Of a stretch of 64,000 nucleotides of DNA, positions 56,401-62,400 are shown piece by piece. The DNA is taken from the NCBI RefSeq assembly GCF_965641715.1, contig NZ_OZ282453.1; one strand, 5' to 3'. The position numbers are program-made. Positions within the stretch are counted from its first letter, which is position 1. Each line of letters opens with the position of its first letter. Origin of the DNA: Escherichia coli (GTDB taxonomy: Bacteria; Pseudomonadota; Gammaproteobacteria; Enterobacterales; Enterobacteriaceae).

Positions 56401-59400
56401 AGCGGGATGGTCAAAACGGCGCTGACGCTGGCAGTAACGACCACCTTAAAGGAATTAACGCCGTGAAAATTGAATTAACGGTGAATGGGCTGAACGTGCA
56501 AGCGCAGTACCATGATGAAGAGATAAAACGCGTGCATAAACCGTTGCTGCGCATGTTGGCGGCCTTACAGACGGTAAATCCGCAGCGGCGAACCGTGGTT
56601 TTTCTTTGCGCTCCGCCGGGAACGGGAAAATCGACCCTGACTACCTTCTGGGAATATCTCGCGCAACAAGACCCCGAACTGCCCGCTATCCAGACGCTGC
56701 CGATGGATGGTTTTCACCATTACAATAGCTGGCTGGATGCGCATCAGCTACGCCCGTACAAAGGCGCGCCGCAGACATTTGATGTGGCAAAACTGGCAGA
56801 AAATTTGCGCCAGGCAGTGCAGGGCGACTGTACGTGGCCGCAGTACGATCGACAAAAACATGATCCGGTAGAAGATGCGTTGCACGTTACCGCACCAATA
56901 ATCATCGTCGAAGGAAACTGGCTATTGCTGGATGACGATAACTGGCGCCAGCTAGCGCAATTTTGTGATTTCTCGATCTTTATCAATGCGCCAGCTACTG
57001 CGTTGCGGGAACGACTGGTGGGGCGCAAGCTGGCGGGAGGGTTATCGCTGGCAGACGCAGAAGCTTTTTATGACCGTACCGACGGGCCGAATGTTCGCCG
57101 GGTGCTGGAAGAGAGTCTGCCTGCAAATTTGACCTTAATGATGACCGCTACGGGTGAATATCGTCTGGTGGATTAATGTTCCTGATTAGACCATCTTCCA
57201 GTCGCACCACACGAGAGAAATGACGCCGGGTAAATGCGGCGTCATGACTGATTGCTACGACGCTCGTGCCTCGCTGGCGGCACTTCTCCAACCAGCTTTC
57301 AAACACGCTCAACCAATTTTCGTCAAAATCCCGACTCGGCTCGTCCAGCAGCAATAGTGGCGGAGAGAGTGCTTCCAGGCAGGCGACGGCGACCATCCGT
57401 CGCTGCGCACTATGCAGATCCAACGGGTGCGCGCTGGCAGTGTCTGCTAACTGACAACATTGCAGGGCAGCATGGGTACGTTGAGTGATTTCATCCGCCG
57501 GGCATTTTTGCAGTTTCAAACCAAATGCGATCTCGTCAGCGACGGTGCTGTGAAAAAGTTGGTTTTCCGCTTCCTGAAACAGTACGCCAATCTTTGCCGC
57601 GCGCTGGCGGTTTTTCAGGTTTTTCATCGCCTGTTGTTGCAGCATAACCGTACCGGCTGTGGGCGTAAGAAGACCTGCCATTACTCGTAACAGCGTCGAT
57701 TTCCCTGCGCCATTGTCGCCGGTCAACGCCAACCATTCACCTTGTTTGAGTTGCAGAGAAATGTCGCAAAGACAATCCGTTGCCGCGCCAGGCCAGCGAT
57801 AAGATATCTGATTTAACGTTAACATAGTGGCTGGAGCGCTCCGTTTTGCAATTGCCACGCTTGCTGGCAGTAGTTCAGGAAAGGTGTGCGATGACGTTCA
57901 AAAAGAATAATCAGCGAACCACGTTCAAACGCCCAGTGTTGTAAGCGCTGCAACAGCATTTCGCTGGCCTGCGGCGTCAGGCGGCTAAAGGCTTCATCAA
58001 GAATTAATAGCTTTGGCTGCATCGCGATGGCGCAGGCGATGACCACGCGCTGTGTCTCTCCACCGGAGAGTGTTGCTGGGTGACGATGGCGCAACGGCTG
58101 GCACTCGGTCAGAGTCAGGGCGGCATCAATCCGCGCCATAATCTCTGCTTCAGCAAGACACAGATTTTCTGGCCCAAAGGCAACTTCTTCTTCCACGCTA
58201 AAGGTACAGCCGGAGAGCTGCAAATAGGGCGATTGCTGGACGAGCTGGATGGTGGCGGATTGTTCATTAAGCGGGAGATGCCCAATGGGCGTACCGAGGA
58301 GCGTCCCCGTGCCTGTTATCTCTCCTGGCAGAAAGTCCGGATACCAGCCCGCCATCAGCTGTGCCAGCGTACTTTTGCCACTGCCGTTGTCACCAAAGAT
58401 GGCGACCATCCCCGGTTTGACATAGTGAAAGTTATAACAGAACGGAGGATGCGTTGAGTGTGTCGGGCAATAACGGAGCTGTTCTAACGTAACCATATCC
58501 ACGCTCCGAATTCTGTCAGCATCAGCAAGATCATGGTGTAACGCGCTACGCGTTGTAGGGTGCTATCGGCTGGTGCCCACAACGTTGTTCGTCGGTTGTG
58601 GATCCGAAATGCCCGCATATCCAGCGCCGCACCGCGGACAGCAAGATCGTTTAGCGCATTGTGTGTTAGCGGAATAATTAACGCGGGCATCGCACGTAAA
58701 CGCTGATACCAGCCCTCATCCAGCGGCACGCCGCGGGCACGCTGCGCTTCATGAATAATCGCTAATTGCCGTTTTAACTGCTCAACGACCAATAACGGCC
58801 CGGCAAACAGATAAGCGACGCCTGGCGGCAGGCGAGAAGCAAACAGAGCGCGGATAAAACATTGCACGGGGACGTACTGCATCCACAACTGTGAGGTTGA
58901 AACAATCGCCAGAATCCGCAACCAGAGCGTAATAGCATGCGTCCAACGCTCCGGCGAACGCGGCGTGCCGCTTAGCCATTCTGTTAGCCAGCCACCGTGT
59001 ACCAGCCACAGCCCGGCTCCCAGCGAGAACATCAGCCAGGCGACATATTTTGCCCGCCGCCGCGTGGCCTTTAGCGCAATAAGGCAAAAAAAGGTCGCCG
59101 CGCTATAGATCGGCAAAATGGTCTGCGCGGGCAGGATAAGCGTGGTGCAGGCCGCCAATGCCCATAGTGTTAATGAGGTAAATGGATGCATTTAGCGCAC
59201 GGCAGCCATTGCCGGAAAATGGCGCGTGGTGCGAATCGGCAGCTGGCGCAGTAAAAGCCAGACAATCACCGCTGTAAGAGTTTTATCGACCAGGTTCGCG
59301 CCTATCACCGTAATCGCCACCGACTCCACCAGGTTTTGCCCCATCGAGTGCATCCAGGCAACGAACAAATCGGCTCCGCTACCGGTGACACCGCCGAACA

Positions 59401-62400
59401 GCGCAGTACGCAGCGGTACAGCGACGACCGTTACCGCAAGCGTAATAATCACGCCGCTGACAACGACTTTTGGCAGGGTGCGAAACCAACCCGCTCGCGC
59501 CAGCCAACCGGCGACCAGGCCGATGACTATCGCGACGGGTGCAAATGCGGCGGCGATCGGGTCGGTCAGCAATCCCCAGAGTAAATTGGTCAGTAAGCCG
59601 GTCAGCATTCCGATCACCGGACCAAGCAGTACCGCGCTAATAAGTGTGCCGATGGAGTCGAGAAATATAGGTAATTTGACCATGCTGGCCAGTTGCCCGC
59701 CGATCATATTGATGGCGATAGATATAACGATCAACACCAGTGCCTGACTGGAAAAGTGGCTACGCGCCATAAGAAAACCTCTCTGAAAGTAGTTATTTAA
59801 CGGGGGAAATATGCAACTCGTCGTAACCAGAAAGCGCGCAAGGTTGGCGGCTAAACGCCAGTTCCTCAAGGCTACCGATCACCAGTTCAAGCGTGGTCCG
59901 CACGGTACAGCCGGGCATCATATGACCGCCAAGCATCGTGCCGTGTGGATCGGAAACGCAGAGATGAAGATGCTCACCACTCTGTTCCAACGTGCCGTTT
60001 AGTGAGATCACTTCGAATGTACCGTTCAGGAGCGTGGTGCCTTCTTGCCCGGCATAGCGCAAGGCGATGTCAGTCAGGCTACCGGTACAGCCTGCAATCC
60101 AGGCGGCATGAAGTTGCTGCTGCTGTGCAAAAGCGTGTAGCTGGGAAAAAACTTCCTGCCCGGGGAGGAGGCGCAGTGCGTAAAAGCGTGCGGAGGAAGA
60201 ATATGGGTAGGGCAATGTCATCATTGGAGTACTCCGAAACTCGGACGTATTGCGGATAATATCGACGCTGCATCAGTCATATTCTGATATAAGTCAGGGT
60301 TTGTGACGGCACAACGAAAAGATTTTGCTACGCTTATTCGTGATTCTGCAAAGTGGAATAAATTCCACAGGGGCGGGGCTGAAAACGTGACGTAAGTCAG
60401 ATAATTGTTTTCTTTGACTGGACAATCATTCCTTTTATTCCACGTTTCGCTTATCCTAGCTGAAGCGTTTCAGTCGATTAAATGTTCGACAATTAACCAA
60501 TCAGTCGCAGTTTGCGACAGGTAAGGTTTCCCCGGACGATTTGCTGGATTACTCTGTCTGGAAAATTTGCTCAGGGAAAACCTTGCAGGAGATCTATGAC
60601 CGTACGCGTAGCGATAAATGGCTTCGGTCGCATCGGGCGTAATGTGGTTCGTGCTTTGTATGAAACCGGACGCCGGGCGGAAATTACCGTGGTGGCAATC
60701 AACGAACTGGCGGATGCTGCGGGCATGGCGCATTTGTTGAAATATGACACCAGCCATGGCCGTTTTGCATGGGAAGTACGACAGGAACGCGATCAACTTT
60801 TTGTTGGTGATGACGCCATCCGCGTATTGCATGAACGTTCACTGCAATCGCTCCCCTGGCGTGAACTTGGCGTTGATGTAGTCCTCGACTGCACCGGCGT
60901 ATATGGCTCCCGCGAGCATGGCGAAGCGCATATTGCCGCCGGGGCCAAAAAAGTGCTCTTTTCACATCCTGGCAGTAACGATCTCGACGCGACCGTTGTT
61001 TACGGCGTCAATCAGGATCAACTTCGTGCGGAACACCGCATCGTTTCTAACGCTTCCTGTACCACGAATTGCATAATTCCCGTCATCAAATTGTTAGATG
61101 ATGCGTACGGTATTGAGTCCGGTACTGTGACCACAATTCACTCCGCCATGCACGATCAACAGGTTATTGATGCATACCATCCTGACCTGCGTCGCACCCG
61201 GGCAGCCAGCCAGTCGATCATTCCGGTCGATACTAAACTGGCCGCCGGTATCACACGATTTTTTCCGCAATTTAACGATCGCTTTGAAGCGATTGCGGTA
61301 CGTGTGCCAACCATAAATGTGACGGCAATCGATTTAAGCGTGACGGTGAAGAAACCTGTAAAAGCCAATGAAGTCAACCTGTTGCTGCAAAAAGCAGCAC
61401 AAGGTGCATTTCATGGTATAGTTGACTATACGGAATTGCCGTTGGTCTCTGTAGATTTTAACCACGATCCGCACAGTGCCATTGTCGATGGCACCCAAAC
61501 CCGGGTCAGTGGCGCACACCTGATCAAAACGTTGGTCTGGTGCGATAACGAATGGGGCTTTGCTAACCGAATGCTCGACACGACGTTAGCTATGGCTACT
61601 GTTGCTTTCAGGTAAGACGCAAGCAGCGTCTGCAAAACTTTTAGAATCAACGAGAGGATTCACCATGTCTGTAATTAAGATGACCGATCTGGATCTTGCT
61701 GGGAAACGTGTATTTATCCGTGCGGATCTGAACGTACCAGTAAAAGACGGGAAAGTAACCAGCGACGCGCGTATCCGTGCTTCTCTGCCGACCATCGAAC
61801 TGGCCCTGAAACAAGGCGCAAAAGTGATGGTAACTTCCCACCTGGGTCGTCCTACCGAAGGCGAGTACAACGAAGAATTCTCTCTGCTGCCGGTTGTTAA
61901 CTACCTGAAAGACAAACTGTCTAACCCGGTTCGTCTGGTTAAAGATTACCTCGACGGCGTTGACGTTGCTGAAGGTGAACTGGTTGTTCTGGAAAACGTT
62001 CGCTTCAACAAAGGCGAGAAGAAAGACGACGAAACCCTGTCCAAAAAATACGCTGCACTGTGTGACGTGTTCGTAATGGACGCATTCGGTACTGCTCACC
62101 GCGCGCAGGCTTCTACTCACGGTATCGGTAAATTCGCTGACGTTGCGTGCGCAGGCCCGCTGCTGGCAGCTGAACTGGACGCGCTGGGTAAAGCACTGAA
62201 AGAACCTGCTCGCCCGATGGTGGCTATCGTTGGTGGTTCTAAAGTATCTACCAAACTGACCGTTCTGGACTCCCTGTCTAAAATCGCTGACCAGCTGATT
62301 GTTGGTGGTGGTATCGCTAACACCTTTATCGCGGCACAAGGCCACGATGTGGGTAAATCCCTGTACGAAGCTGACCTGGTTGACGAAGCTAAACGTCTGC

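What the first reader, a model, noticed from the sequence alone, without database searches (positions are those of the whole stretch)
57148..60224. Five-gene DUF296 + ECF-type transporter operon between yggC and epd
On the minus strand, five tightly packed genes (gaps or overlaps of 22 nt or less) encode a PPC/DUF296 protein, a small 6-TM membrane protein, an EcfT/CbiQ-like T component and two short ABC ATPases. From memory, K-12 has only ~0.3 kb of intergenic DNA between yggC and epd, so this looks like a strain-variable islet. Much of the stretch looks GC-rich by eye. An ECF module of unknown substrate coupled to a DUF296 protein is not a pairing I can assign to any characterised system. Its 3' end overlaps the 3' end of the yggC kinase gene convergently by about 29 bp.
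Basis: partly seen in the sequence, partly recalled or inferred. Interest (0 to 1): 0.7.

Follow-up and report, generated by a model that had tools for sequence, protein, structure and literature searches.

The report
PPC protein plus QrtTUVW-type ECF importer
The five genes are real and form an old enterobacterial operon, missing from K-12, that encodes an ATP-driven vitamin-type importer already named QrtTUVW in Salmonella plus a small metal-site protein of unknown role; it has been noted before but its cargo has never been tested.

Summary
Five intact minus-strand genes (57148-60224) encode a PPC/DUF296 protein, an ECF S component, an EcfT/CbiQ T component and two ABC ATPases. The block is in 3317 of 5426 complete E. 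coli genomes and absent from K-12.

It is not a new pairing. It is the E. coli ortholog of the Salmonella operon whose transporter genes (STY3230-3233) are the prototype of QrtTUVW, a predicted queuosine-precursor ECF transporter. A Salmonella thesis instead proposed Co2+ import, with the PPC protein (STM3071) as regulator. I found no transport test of the enterobacterial system.

New here:
- The order PPC-S-T-A-A holds in about 65 of 80 species loci across six phyla.
- More distant S homologs sit beside nucleoside hydrolases, ribokinase, uridine-phosphorylase-like genes and a YhhQ queuosine-precursor transporter, which points to nucleoside-like cargo rather than metal.
- The PPC protein has no AT-hook. 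It has an invariant HxH...GGH motif and a fold like the zinc enzyme acetolactate decarboxylase.
- A conserved FNR-type box lies at -41.5, matching reported anaerobic activation in Salmonella.
- Synteny in Salmonella and Citrobacter shows the locus is ancestral and was lost in K-12.

Interest is moderate.

The parts
59793..60224 (-). PPC/DUF296 protein, 143 aa; first gene of the operon (Salmonella ortholog STM3071; PDB 2HX0/2NMU)
59192..59770 (-). ECF substrate-specific (S) component, 192 aa, 6 TM; QrtT-type (Salmonella STM3072, inferred STY3230)
58484..59191 (-). ECF transmembrane (T) component, 235 aa; QrtU-type
   Evidence: Pfam CbiQ 1.7e-4. RefSeq names it 'energy-coupling factor transporter transmembrane component T'. 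AQxARG and ALxxRxF coupling-helix motifs are conserved in 73 orthologs. S-T fusion proteins exist in the family.
57819..58496 (-). ABC ATPase A1, 225 aa; QrtV-type. Canonical Walker A/B and LSGGE signature, but Glu in place of the H-loop His
   Evidence: NCBIfam ECF_ATPase_1 8e-35. Motif conservation in 68 orthologs.
57148..57825 (-). ABC ATPase A2, 225 aa; QrtW-type. Canonical Walker A/B and H-loop, but a non-canonical signature (hPLDL...)
   Evidence: NCBIfam ECF_ATPase_2 1.3e-43. Motif conservation in 70 orthologs. 29-nt convergent overlap with yggC.
60285..60296 (-). Palindrome TGACTTATATCA (consensus TGAy-N4-rTCA), centred 29.5 nt upstream of the first base of the -10 hexamer, i.e. about -41.5; FNR/CRP-family class II-like site (predicted)
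   Evidence: Conserved in position and sequence across about 15 Enterobacteriaceae genera or species. The pattern alone is not rarer than chance in the window. The Salmonella operon is reported as anaerobically activated (PMC11481890).
60256..60261 (-). Predicted -10 hexamer TATTAT of the operon promoter
   Evidence: TA..AT is invariant across genera in the upstream alignments. The consensus scan did not call a complete -35/-10 promoter here, which fits an activator-dependent promoter.
60231..60248 (-). Invariant 18-nt element ACGTCCGAGTTTCGGAGT at the start of the leader. It is a 5-bp inverted repeat (TCCGA/TCGGA) and could be an RNA hairpin or a DNA operator.
   Evidence: Invariant in 13 sequences while the flanks vary. 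100% pairing, with one compensatory A-U to G-C change in two Superficieibacter species. It is not found upstream of non-Enterobacteriaceae orthologs. No Rfam match.
57108..60374 (.). Segment present here and replaced by 132 unrelated bp in K-12 (the presence/absence polymorphism)
   Evidence: blastn of the K-12 locus against the window. Population counts.

Best explanation
The block is a self-contained five-gene operon.

Shown:
- Four genes encode a dedicated (group I) ECF-type ABC importer. These are a six-helix vitamin-type S component that binds the cargo, a T component with the two Arg-containing coupling helices, and a heterodimer of two ATPases.
- The ATPase pair has one consensus ATP site and one degenerate ATP site, by conserved sequence motifs.
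- The system is the E. coli ortholog of Salmonella QrtTUVW.

Inferred, cargo: a nucleoside-like micronutrient. The most likely candidates are a queuosine-family 7-deazapurine (preQ1, queuine or queuosine) or another ribonucleoside. A metal ion is unlikely.

Inferred, PPC protein: the first gene encodes a small cytoplasmic PPC protein with an acetolactate-decarboxylase-like His3 (HxH...GGH) metal site. It is made together with the transporter, and most likely binds or chemically processes the imported cargo rather than binding DNA.

Inferred, regulation: in Enterobacteriaceae, transcription starts at an activator-dependent promoter with an FNR-type box at -41.5, so the system is switched on without oxygen, as in the gut.

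Shown, history: the locus is ancestral to the Escherichia-Salmonella-Citrobacter group and was deleted in K-12-like E. coli.
For: ECF identity:
- Pfam and NCBIfam hits.
- T-component coupling motifs and ATPase motifs are conserved in 68-73 orthologs.
- S-T fusion proteins exist in the family.

QrtTUVW identity:
- QrtT/U/V/W are defined as STY3230/3231/3232/3233, in the same S-T-A-A order.
- Salmonella S proteins are 91-92% identical to this one.
- STM3072 maps into the S gene.

Nucleoside-type cargo:
- S homologs at 41-45% identity lie directly after IU-nucleoside hydrolase genes in 11 loci.
- Some of these loci also carry a LacI-type regulator, ribokinase and a uridine-phosphorylase-like gene. 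One has a LacI-PfkB fusion and three hydrolases.
- In four Anaerolineales loci the neighbour is a YhhQ-family 'queuosine precursor transporter' (111 bits against a 51-bit cutoff).
- C. difficile QrtT transports preQ1, q and Q and sits beside the hydrolase QueK (PMC11130926, PMC11477304).

PPC as partner:
- The PPC gene lies immediately upstream of S, on the same strand, at -14 to +139 nt in 64 loci. These span Enterobacterales, Aeromonas, Wohlfahrtiimonas, Laribacter, Rhizobiales, Paracoccus, Desulfobulbaceae, Synergistaceae and Chloroflexi, with otherwise unrelated neighbours.
- 4-nt ATGA overlaps occur in several phyla.

PPC as metal-site protein:
- H85, H87, H101, E71, E113, E136, R18, R56 and R126 are invariant.
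- The three His of ALDC's YHxHFITDDRxGGGH motif lie at chain positions 194, 196 and 207 in 4BT2. From memory, these are its Zn ligands.

Anaerobic control:
- A conserved TGAy-N4-rTCA box at -41.5.
- The Salmonella operon is reported as anaerobically activated and groups with FNR-activated genes.

Ancestral state: synteny.
Against: - No transport or binding data for the enterobacterial system turned up in the literature I could search.
- No preQ1 riboswitch, or any Rfam element, was found in the window or in 20 related loci. The 'queuosine-regulated' label is therefore not reproduced for this subfamily.
- None of the 64 PPC-type loci carries a recognisable queuosine or nucleoside gene next to it. 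The nucleoside link comes from a sister subfamily at 41-45% identity.
- E. coli makes queuosine de novo and already has YhhQ, so the benefit of a second uptake route is unclear.
- The S component scores below the NCBIfam cutoff for its nearest family (134 against 180 bits).
- The mapping of STY3230-3233 onto this operon rests on gene order and my memory of the locus tags.
- The FNR-box pattern is not statistically unusual on its own. Its first base is C rather than T.
- The His3 site is inferred from motif and fold, not from a bound metal.
Confidence: 0.5

Rival explanations
1. Cobalt or nickel importer. The ECF module takes up Co2+ (or Ni2+) under anaerobiosis. The PPC protein, through its His3 site, acts as the metal-sensing regulator or as a metallochaperone. 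This is the Salmonella STM3071 hypothesis.
For: - The T and A components hit CbiQ/CbiO-type models, which is the source of the 'cobalt transport' annotation.
- Co-regulation with the anaerobic, FNR-activated nickel uptake genes.
- The PPC protein has an invariant His triad typical of a metal site.
Against: - CbiQ/CbiO similarity is generic to all ECF modules.
- It starts MARSHF..., without the N-terminal Met-His metal-binding motif of CbiM/NikM (family knowledge). No CbiN, NikN, NikK or NikL partner gene is present.
- S homologs cluster with nucleoside hydrolases, ribokinase and YhhQ, never with metal-related genes.
Confidence: 0.15
2. The PPC protein is a ligand-responsive DNA-binding autoregulator of a nucleoside or queuosine-precursor ECF importer. 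It would take the place of the preQ1 riboswitch found before other Q transporters, and bind the palindromic 18-nt leader element.
For: - Database names are 'PPC domain-containing DNA-binding protein' and 'putative regulator of transporter operon'.
- First-gene position.
- An invariant palindrome overlaps the predicted transcription start, with one symmetric double change.
- No riboswitch is present.
Against: - The 'DNA-binding' name derives from the AT-hook of plant AHL/PD1 proteins, which this protein lacks (sequence).
- The model is a beta-sandwich with one helix and no known DNA-binding motif. Its nearest non-family fold is an enzyme.
- The 18-nt element is confined to Enterobacteriaceae, while the PPC-S pairing spans six phyla.
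- In three Chloroflexi loci the PPC gene precedes a nucleoside hydrolase within the same gene string.
- A Vibrio paralog is itself paired with a TetR regulator.
- Start-stop overlaps with S suggest equimolar synthesis.
Confidence: 0.2
3. A decaying remnant with no current function in E. coli. It would be kept only by linkage and be on its way to loss, as in K-12.
For: Lost in 39% of complete genomes. One ATP site is degenerate and the ATPases are short.
Against: - All five reading frames are intact and match RefSeq lengths.
- Catalytic and structural residues are invariant across phyla.
- The degenerate site is itself conserved in 68-70 orthologs, so it is a family feature.
- The promoter elements are conserved.
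- The Salmonella operon is transcribed and regulated.
Confidence: 0.03

Closest known systems
QrtTUVW of Salmonella enterica serovar Typhi (STY3230-STY3233; TC 3.A.1.28, predicted queuosine-precursor ECF transporter)
   Same: Orthologous. It has the same S-T-A-A gene order and the same chromosomal place next to epd. Salmonella S is 91-92% identical and Salmonella PPC 82-83%.
   Different: Nothing structural. The Salmonella naming covers only the four transporter genes and ignores the upstream PPC gene. The queuosine assignment is a comparative-genomics prediction that I could not reproduce for this subfamily, because no preQ1 riboswitch was found.
Clostridioides difficile QueK-QrtT-QueL queuosine salvage operon
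   Same: The S component is of the same Pfam family (PF12822). It sits beside an IU-family nucleoside hydrolase, as do the sister-subfamily loci found here.
   Different: The C. difficile QrtT uses the shared EcfAA'T module, is controlled by a preQ1-I riboswitch, and is accompanied by QueK and the radical-SAM lyase QueL. The E. coli operon has its own T/A/A', no riboswitch, no QueK or QueL, and a PPC protein instead. Sequence identity to C. difficile QrtT could not be measured here.
CbiMNQO / NikMNQO metal ECF transporters
   Same: Dedicated group I ECF architecture, with CbiQ-like T and CbiO-like ATPases encoded beside the S component.
   Different: There is no CbiM/NikM-type S component, no CbiN/NikN partner and no N-terminal Met-His motif. 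Structural similarity to CbiM is lower than to vitamin-type S components.
Alpha-acetolactate decarboxylase (ALDC) and the AF0104/ALDC/Ptd012-like fold group
   Different: PPC is a single 140-aa domain, whereas ALDC has about 235-260 aa in two domains. No sequence-level match reaches significance. Substrate and reaction are unknown.
Plant AHL (AT-hook motif nuclear-localised) proteins with a PPC/DUF296 domain
   Same: Same Pfam domain.
   Different: The bacterial protein has no AT-hook, which is the DNA-binding part of AHLs. From family knowledge, the plant domains lack the His triad that is invariant here.

Membership tests
ECF-type ABC importer, group I (dedicated module) | Small integral-membrane S component with the six-helix ECF S fold | tested here: met
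ECF-type ABC importer, group I (dedicated module) | EcfT/CbiQ T component with two Arg-containing coupling-helix motifs | tested here: met
   Pfam CbiQ 1.7e-4. AQxARG and ALxxRxF are conserved in 73 orthologs.
ECF-type ABC importer, group I (dedicated module) | Two ABC ATPases of the EcfA/CbiO class encoded beside S and T, with no periplasmic binding-protein gene | tested here: met
   The best NCBIfam hits are ECF_ATPase_1 and _2 at 121-149 bits, below the equivalog cutoffs of 315-330. The gene map shows no binding-protein gene.
QrtTUVW (TC 3.A.1.28) | Orthology to STY3230-3233 of Salmonella Typhi | tested here: inconclusive
   Orthology to the Salmonella operon next to epd is clear: 91-92% identity for S, the same gene order, and STM3072 mapping into S. 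That STY3230-3233 are these genes follows from the S-T-A-A order and from my memory of the tags. No record with STY tags could be read.
QrtTUVW (TC 3.A.1.28) | Regulation by a preQ1 riboswitch, or clustering with queuosine genes | tested here: not met
   No Rfam match at E <= 1 in 56900-60800. None at gathering score in 20 related loci. The only link is a YhhQ-family gene beside four closely related Anaerolineales loci of the sister subfamily.
QrtTUVW (TC 3.A.1.28) | Transport of preQ1, preQ0, queuine or queuosine | not testable with these tools
   This needs the Q-tRNA complementation assay used in PMC5372724 and PMC11130926.
CbiMNQO/NikMNQO metal ECF transporters | CbiM/NikM-type S component with an N-terminal Met-His metal site, plus a CbiN/NikN (or NikKL) partner | tested here: not met
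PPC/DUF296 (Pfam PF03479) | Match to the PCC domain and its fold | tested here: met
AT-hook DNA-binding proteins (source of the 'DNA-binding' name) | AT-hook (Arg-Gly-Arg-Pro core) or another DNA-binding motif | tested here: not met
   No RGRP in the 143 residues. The model is beta-strands plus one helix. No DNA-binding family appears among the Pfam or NCBIfam hits.
ALDC-like His3 zinc enzymes | Three His ligands in an HxH...H arrangement on the ALDC-like sheet, with bound Zn | tested here: inconclusive
   The motif and fold are present and invariant. Metal binding and catalysis cannot be tested here.
Horizontally acquired genomic island | Integrase or tRNA site, flanking direct repeats, atypical composition, absence from sister genera | tested here: not met
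   No tRNA in 50-64 kb. No junction repeats. GC is 55.1% against 52.1%, within the window's spread. Same locus in Salmonella, Citrobacter and E. albertii.

The most novel reading that the evidence does not exclude
The PPC protein is a small zinc-dependent enzyme that converts the imported cargo into a usable form. One example would be releasing preQ1 or the base from queuine or queuosine without the nucleoside hydrolase QueK or the radical-SAM lyase QueL. That would be the first biochemical function for the bacterial PPC/DUF296 domain, and a new route of queuosine or nucleoside salvage that gut enterobacteria switch on anaerobically.
Probability: 0.12. Interest if true: 0.75.

Novelty: already known. 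Interest (0 to 1): 0.38.

Why it matters
Two incompatible annotations are in circulation for the same operon. One calls it a queuosine-precursor importer and the other a cobalt importer with a DNA-binding regulator. Neither has been tested.

The operon is carried by most pathogenic E. coli and Salmonella, but not by the laboratory strain K-12. The data here favour a nucleoside-like cargo. They also show that the PPC/DUF296 gene is a fixed partner of this transporter across six phyla.

PPC/DUF296 is a domain without any known bacterial function, and it is the core of the plant AHL regulators. A fixed partnership with a transporter gives a concrete and cheap way to find its ligand. If the cargo is a queuosine precursor, the presence/absence polymorphism would also mean that E. 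coli lineages differ in their ability to compete for this host-shared micronutrient in the anaerobic gut.

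Tried and rejected
1. Riboswitch or other known RNA upstream: no Rfam hit at E <= 1 in 56900-60800. There were no relevant hits in 20 related loci; only a tRNA, a T-box and 6S RNA turned up elsewhere.
2. Integrative island: no tRNA, no flanking repeats, weak GC shift. Rejected.
3. Consensus promoter and terminator scan: nothing above shuffled expectation, and no full sigma-70 promoter upstream of the PPC gene.
4. Shared neighbours beyond the five genes in PPC-type loci: the neighbours are unrelated, e.g. 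pyrD, GGDEF, sugar-binding proteins and acetone carboxylase. This gives no substrate hint.
5. PurR box reading of the conserved TAGCAAAATCTTTTCGTT (60313-60330): the half-site spacing is one base too long by my reading, so I dropped it.
6. The first attempt to scan genomes with the 30-sequence S alignment failed because it had no conserved stretch. It was repeated with 8 sequences.
7. Papers I could not obtain: Rodionov 2009 and Yuan 2019. Full-text searches for CD3073, the CD1683-type tags and STY3229-3234 found nothing relevant; the STY3230/QrtT search found STY3230 only in a supplement.
8. Cluster names gave only generic labels and no locus tags.
9. PPC homologs at or below 39% identity (Vibrio, Variovorax, Nostoc, Burkholderia) are not next to ECF genes. 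The pairing is therefore specific to one PPC subfamily, not to the whole domain family.

Full report

Yes. The ORF list shows five consecutive minus-strand frames between 57148 and 60224. RefSeq annotates the same five genes in E. coli O157:H7, which is 98.8% identical over 10.3 kb.

- The products are named PPC domain-containing DNA-binding protein, ECF transporter S component, energy-coupling factor transporter transmembrane component T, and two ABC transporter ATP-binding proteins.
- With RefSeq starts, the junctions are +22, 0, -13 and -7 nt.
- The last gene overlaps yggC convergently by 29 nt.
- Pfam gives PCC (4e-28), ECF_trnsprt (7.8e-8) and CbiQ (1.7e-4).
- Both ATPases hit ECF/CbiO-type ATPase models best.

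**2. Strain variability**

- A megablast of 56400-60700 against 5426 complete E. coli genomes finds the full block in 3317. A K-12-like state, with only the flanks matching, is in nearly all the others.
- K-12 has 284 bp between yggC and epd.
- Homology to K-12 ends at 57107, inside the last 23 codons of yggC, and resumes at 60375. So 3267 bp here correspond to 132 unrelated bp in K-12.

**3. Acquired or lost?**

The evidence says lost.

- A scan of one genome per species with an S-component alignment returned 80 loci.
- In E. albertii, Citrobacter, Salmonella, Superficieibacter and Phytobacter the operon lies between epd and a convergent yggC, as here.
- There is no tRNA, integrase or junction repeat.
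- GC is 55.1% against 52.1% for the window, about 1.2 sd above the mean.
- The 'islet' is therefore the ancestral state and K-12 carries a deletion haplotype.

**4. What the transporter is**

*T component.* It keeps the two Arg-containing coupling motifs, AQxARG and ALxxRxF, in 73 orthologs.

*ATPases.*
- A1 has Walker A/B and an LSGGE signature, but Glu in place of the H-loop His.
- A2 has Walker A/B and an H-loop, but a non-canonical signature (hPLDL).
- The dimer should therefore have one consensus and one degenerate ATP site, conserved in 68-70 orthologs.

*Fusions.* S-T fusion proteins in the family confirm the functional unit.

**5. It already has a name**

- The supplement of Rodionov et al. 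[quoted passage not shown] It lists QrtU as STY3231 (T) and QrtV/QrtW as STY3232/3233 (ATPases). This is a Salmonella Typhi S-T-A-A string.
- TCDB treats it as family 3.A.1.28 (PMC3654945).
- In Salmonella LT2, the published sigma-54 site assigned to STM3072 matches 15 of 18 bases inside the S gene here.
[quoted passage not shown] - The Salmonella PPC ortholog has crystal structures, 2HX0 and 2NMU, at 82-83% identity.
- The object is therefore known, but with two conflicting predicted functions. I found no transport experiment.
- The C. difficile QrtT proteins were tested, and carry preQ1 or preQ1/queuine/queuosine (PMC11130926). Those belong to a riboswitch-controlled queK-qrtT-queL operon that uses the shared ECF module (PMC11477304).

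**6. Which cargo?**

I found no riboswitch. Rfam gives nothing in the window region at E <= 1 and nothing relevant in 20 related loci.

Gene neighbourhoods are more informative.

*PPC-type loci.* The 64 loci with S at or above roughly 47% identity to E. coli have unrelated neighbours.

*Next-closest S proteins (41-45% identity).*
- They lie directly downstream of IU-family nucleoside hydrolase genes in 11 loci.
- In two Bacillota genomes the string is LacI-type regulator, ribokinase, hydrolase, S-T-A-A, uridine-phosphorylase-like.
- In another lineage it is a LacI-PfkB fusion, three hydrolases, S-T-A-A, MFS.
- In four Anaerolineales genomes a divergently transcribed YhhQ-family 'queuosine precursor transporter' (111 bits against a 51-bit cutoff) lies beside the cluster. 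In two of the four, the PPC gene precedes the hydrolase.

The family is therefore tied to ribonucleosides and, in places, to queuosine salvage. It is never tied to metal genes.

Together with the vitamin-type S fold and the absence of CbiM/CbiN features, this makes a nucleoside-like cargo more likely than Co2+. The inference is by homology at 41-45% identity, and E. coli already makes queuosine and has YhhQ. I put it at about even odds.

**7. The PPC partner**

*Linkage.*
- In 64 of the 80 loci a PPC gene lies on the same strand immediately upstream of S, at -14 to +139 nt.
- 4-nt overlaps occur in Hafnia, Laribacter, Paracoccus, Desulfobulbaceae and Synergistaceae.
- A Paracoccus yeei plasmid carries the same cassette.
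- The taxa span Gamma-, Beta- and Alphaproteobacteria, Desulfobacterota, Synergistota and Chloroflexota. Pairing this constant, against changing surroundings, indicates a functional partnership.

*The 'DNA-binding' name.*
- It comes from plant AT-hook proteins. The E. coli protein has no AT-hook.
- The model (pLDDT 95.6) is a beta-sandwich with one helix.

*Invariant residues and fold.*
- Nineteen positions are invariant in 32 diverse orthologs. They include H85, H87, H101, E71, E113, E136, R18, R56 and R126.
- ALDC chains carry YHxHFITDDRxGGGH, with the three His at positions 194, 196 and 207 of 4BT2. From memory, these are its Zn ligands. The PPC motif is EHLHLCVSDPHGTMLGGH.

I therefore read the PPC protein as a metal-site enzyme or ligand-binding protein acting on the cargo. 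A regulator role is the main rival, and the data do not exclude it.

More distant PPC paralogs (at or below 39% identity) are not next to ECF genes. One in Vibrio is paired with a TetR regulator.

**8. Regulation in Enterobacteriaceae**

Aligning the upstream regions of about 16 species shows three conserved blocks in otherwise variable DNA.

- A palindrome TGAy-N4-rTCA (60285-60296).
- A TATTAT -10 hexamer (60256-60261).
- An invariant ACGTCCGAGTyTCGGAGT (60231-60248).

The palindrome centre lies 29.5 nt upstream of the first base of the -10 hexamer, i.e. at -41.5. That is the class II position of FNR/CRP-family activators. The sequence is closer to the FNR half-site (TTGAT) than to the CRP one. 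This agrees with the reported anaerobic activation of the Salmonella operon among FNR-activated genes. On its own the pattern is not rarer than chance, so the argument rests on conservation and position.

The 18-nt element contains a 5-bp inverted repeat that always pairs. It shows one compensatory change in two Superficieibacter species. It could be a 5' RNA hairpin or an operator. It is absent upstream of non-Enterobacteriaceae orthologs.

**9. Verdict**

The operon is an already catalogued system (QrtTUVW plus STM3071-type PPC) that K-12 has lost.
- What remains open, and made testable by the conserved pairing, is the cargo and the role of the PPC protein.

Noticed in passing
window 55200-57107 and 60375-60674: Identity to K-12 falls steadily towards the presence/absence junction. 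It is about 100% at 53.4-55.2 kb, then 95%, 91%, 82% and 68.5% in the last 108 bp of yggC. On the epd side it is 95.7% in the first 300 bp and about 100% beyond. The two haplotypes look old, or one was imported from a divergent lineage. YggC C-termini differ (…EYRLVD against …RYHFTS).
   Followed up: partly
window 57148-58496 (both ATPase genes): The ATPase pair is asymmetric in 68-70 orthologs. A1 has Glu instead of the H-loop His, and A2 has hPLDL instead of the LSGGQ signature. This predicts one consensus and one degenerate ATP site, which as far as I recall is unusual for ECF modules. Both proteins are also about 50 aa shorter in Escherichia, Salmonella and Citrobacter than in Proteus, Providencia and other orthologs.
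   Followed up: partly
window 60386-60405 (core 60388-60399): A second palindrome, TCTGACTTACGTCACG, close to the CRP consensus TGTGA-N6-TCACA. It is conserved across genera and lies in the DNA shared with K-12, upstream of epd. It probably belongs to the epd promoter region rather than to the ECF operon.
   Followed up: no
window 60350-60362 and 60434-60446; 60313-60330: Inverted copies of TGGAATAAA/TTTATTCCA are conserved across genera. A block TAGCAAAATCTTTTCGTT is conserved in Escherichia, Citrobacter and Klebsiella. Both are unexplained candidate protein-binding sites between the divergent operon and epd.
   Followed up: no
window 59337-59354 (+ strand, inside the S gene): This is the counterpart of the sigma-54 binding site reported inside Salmonella STM3072 (TGGCCCATTGAATGCATC). 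Here it reads TGCCCCATCGAGTGCATC, with the conserved GG changed to GC, so the site is probably not kept in this E. coli.
   Followed up: partly
proteins P0339, P0341, P0351: S-component-like domains of this family are fused to the N-terminus of histidine kinases (447-935 aa). This suggests the same ligand-binding membrane fold is reused as a sensor.
   Followed up: no
L045, L061, L062, L063, L066, L070, L074 (e.g. L070 7198-7554): In seven Chloroflexi loci, a 118-aa protein resembling the C-terminal half of the selenium-metabolism protein YedF (4e-31) lies directly upstream of the PPC gene.
   Followed up: no
L086 5421-6402 (Vibrio campbellii chromosome II): A PPC paralog (37.6% identical, VCA0587-like) forms a two-gene unit with an upstream TetR-family regulator, with stop and start 1 nt apart. 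No transporter is nearby.
   Followed up: partly
L003 (metagenome contig): Three S-component genes of this family lie on one 5.5-kb contig around a single fused double-ATPase gene (684 aa). This is an array of paralogous S components sharing one module.
   Followed up: no
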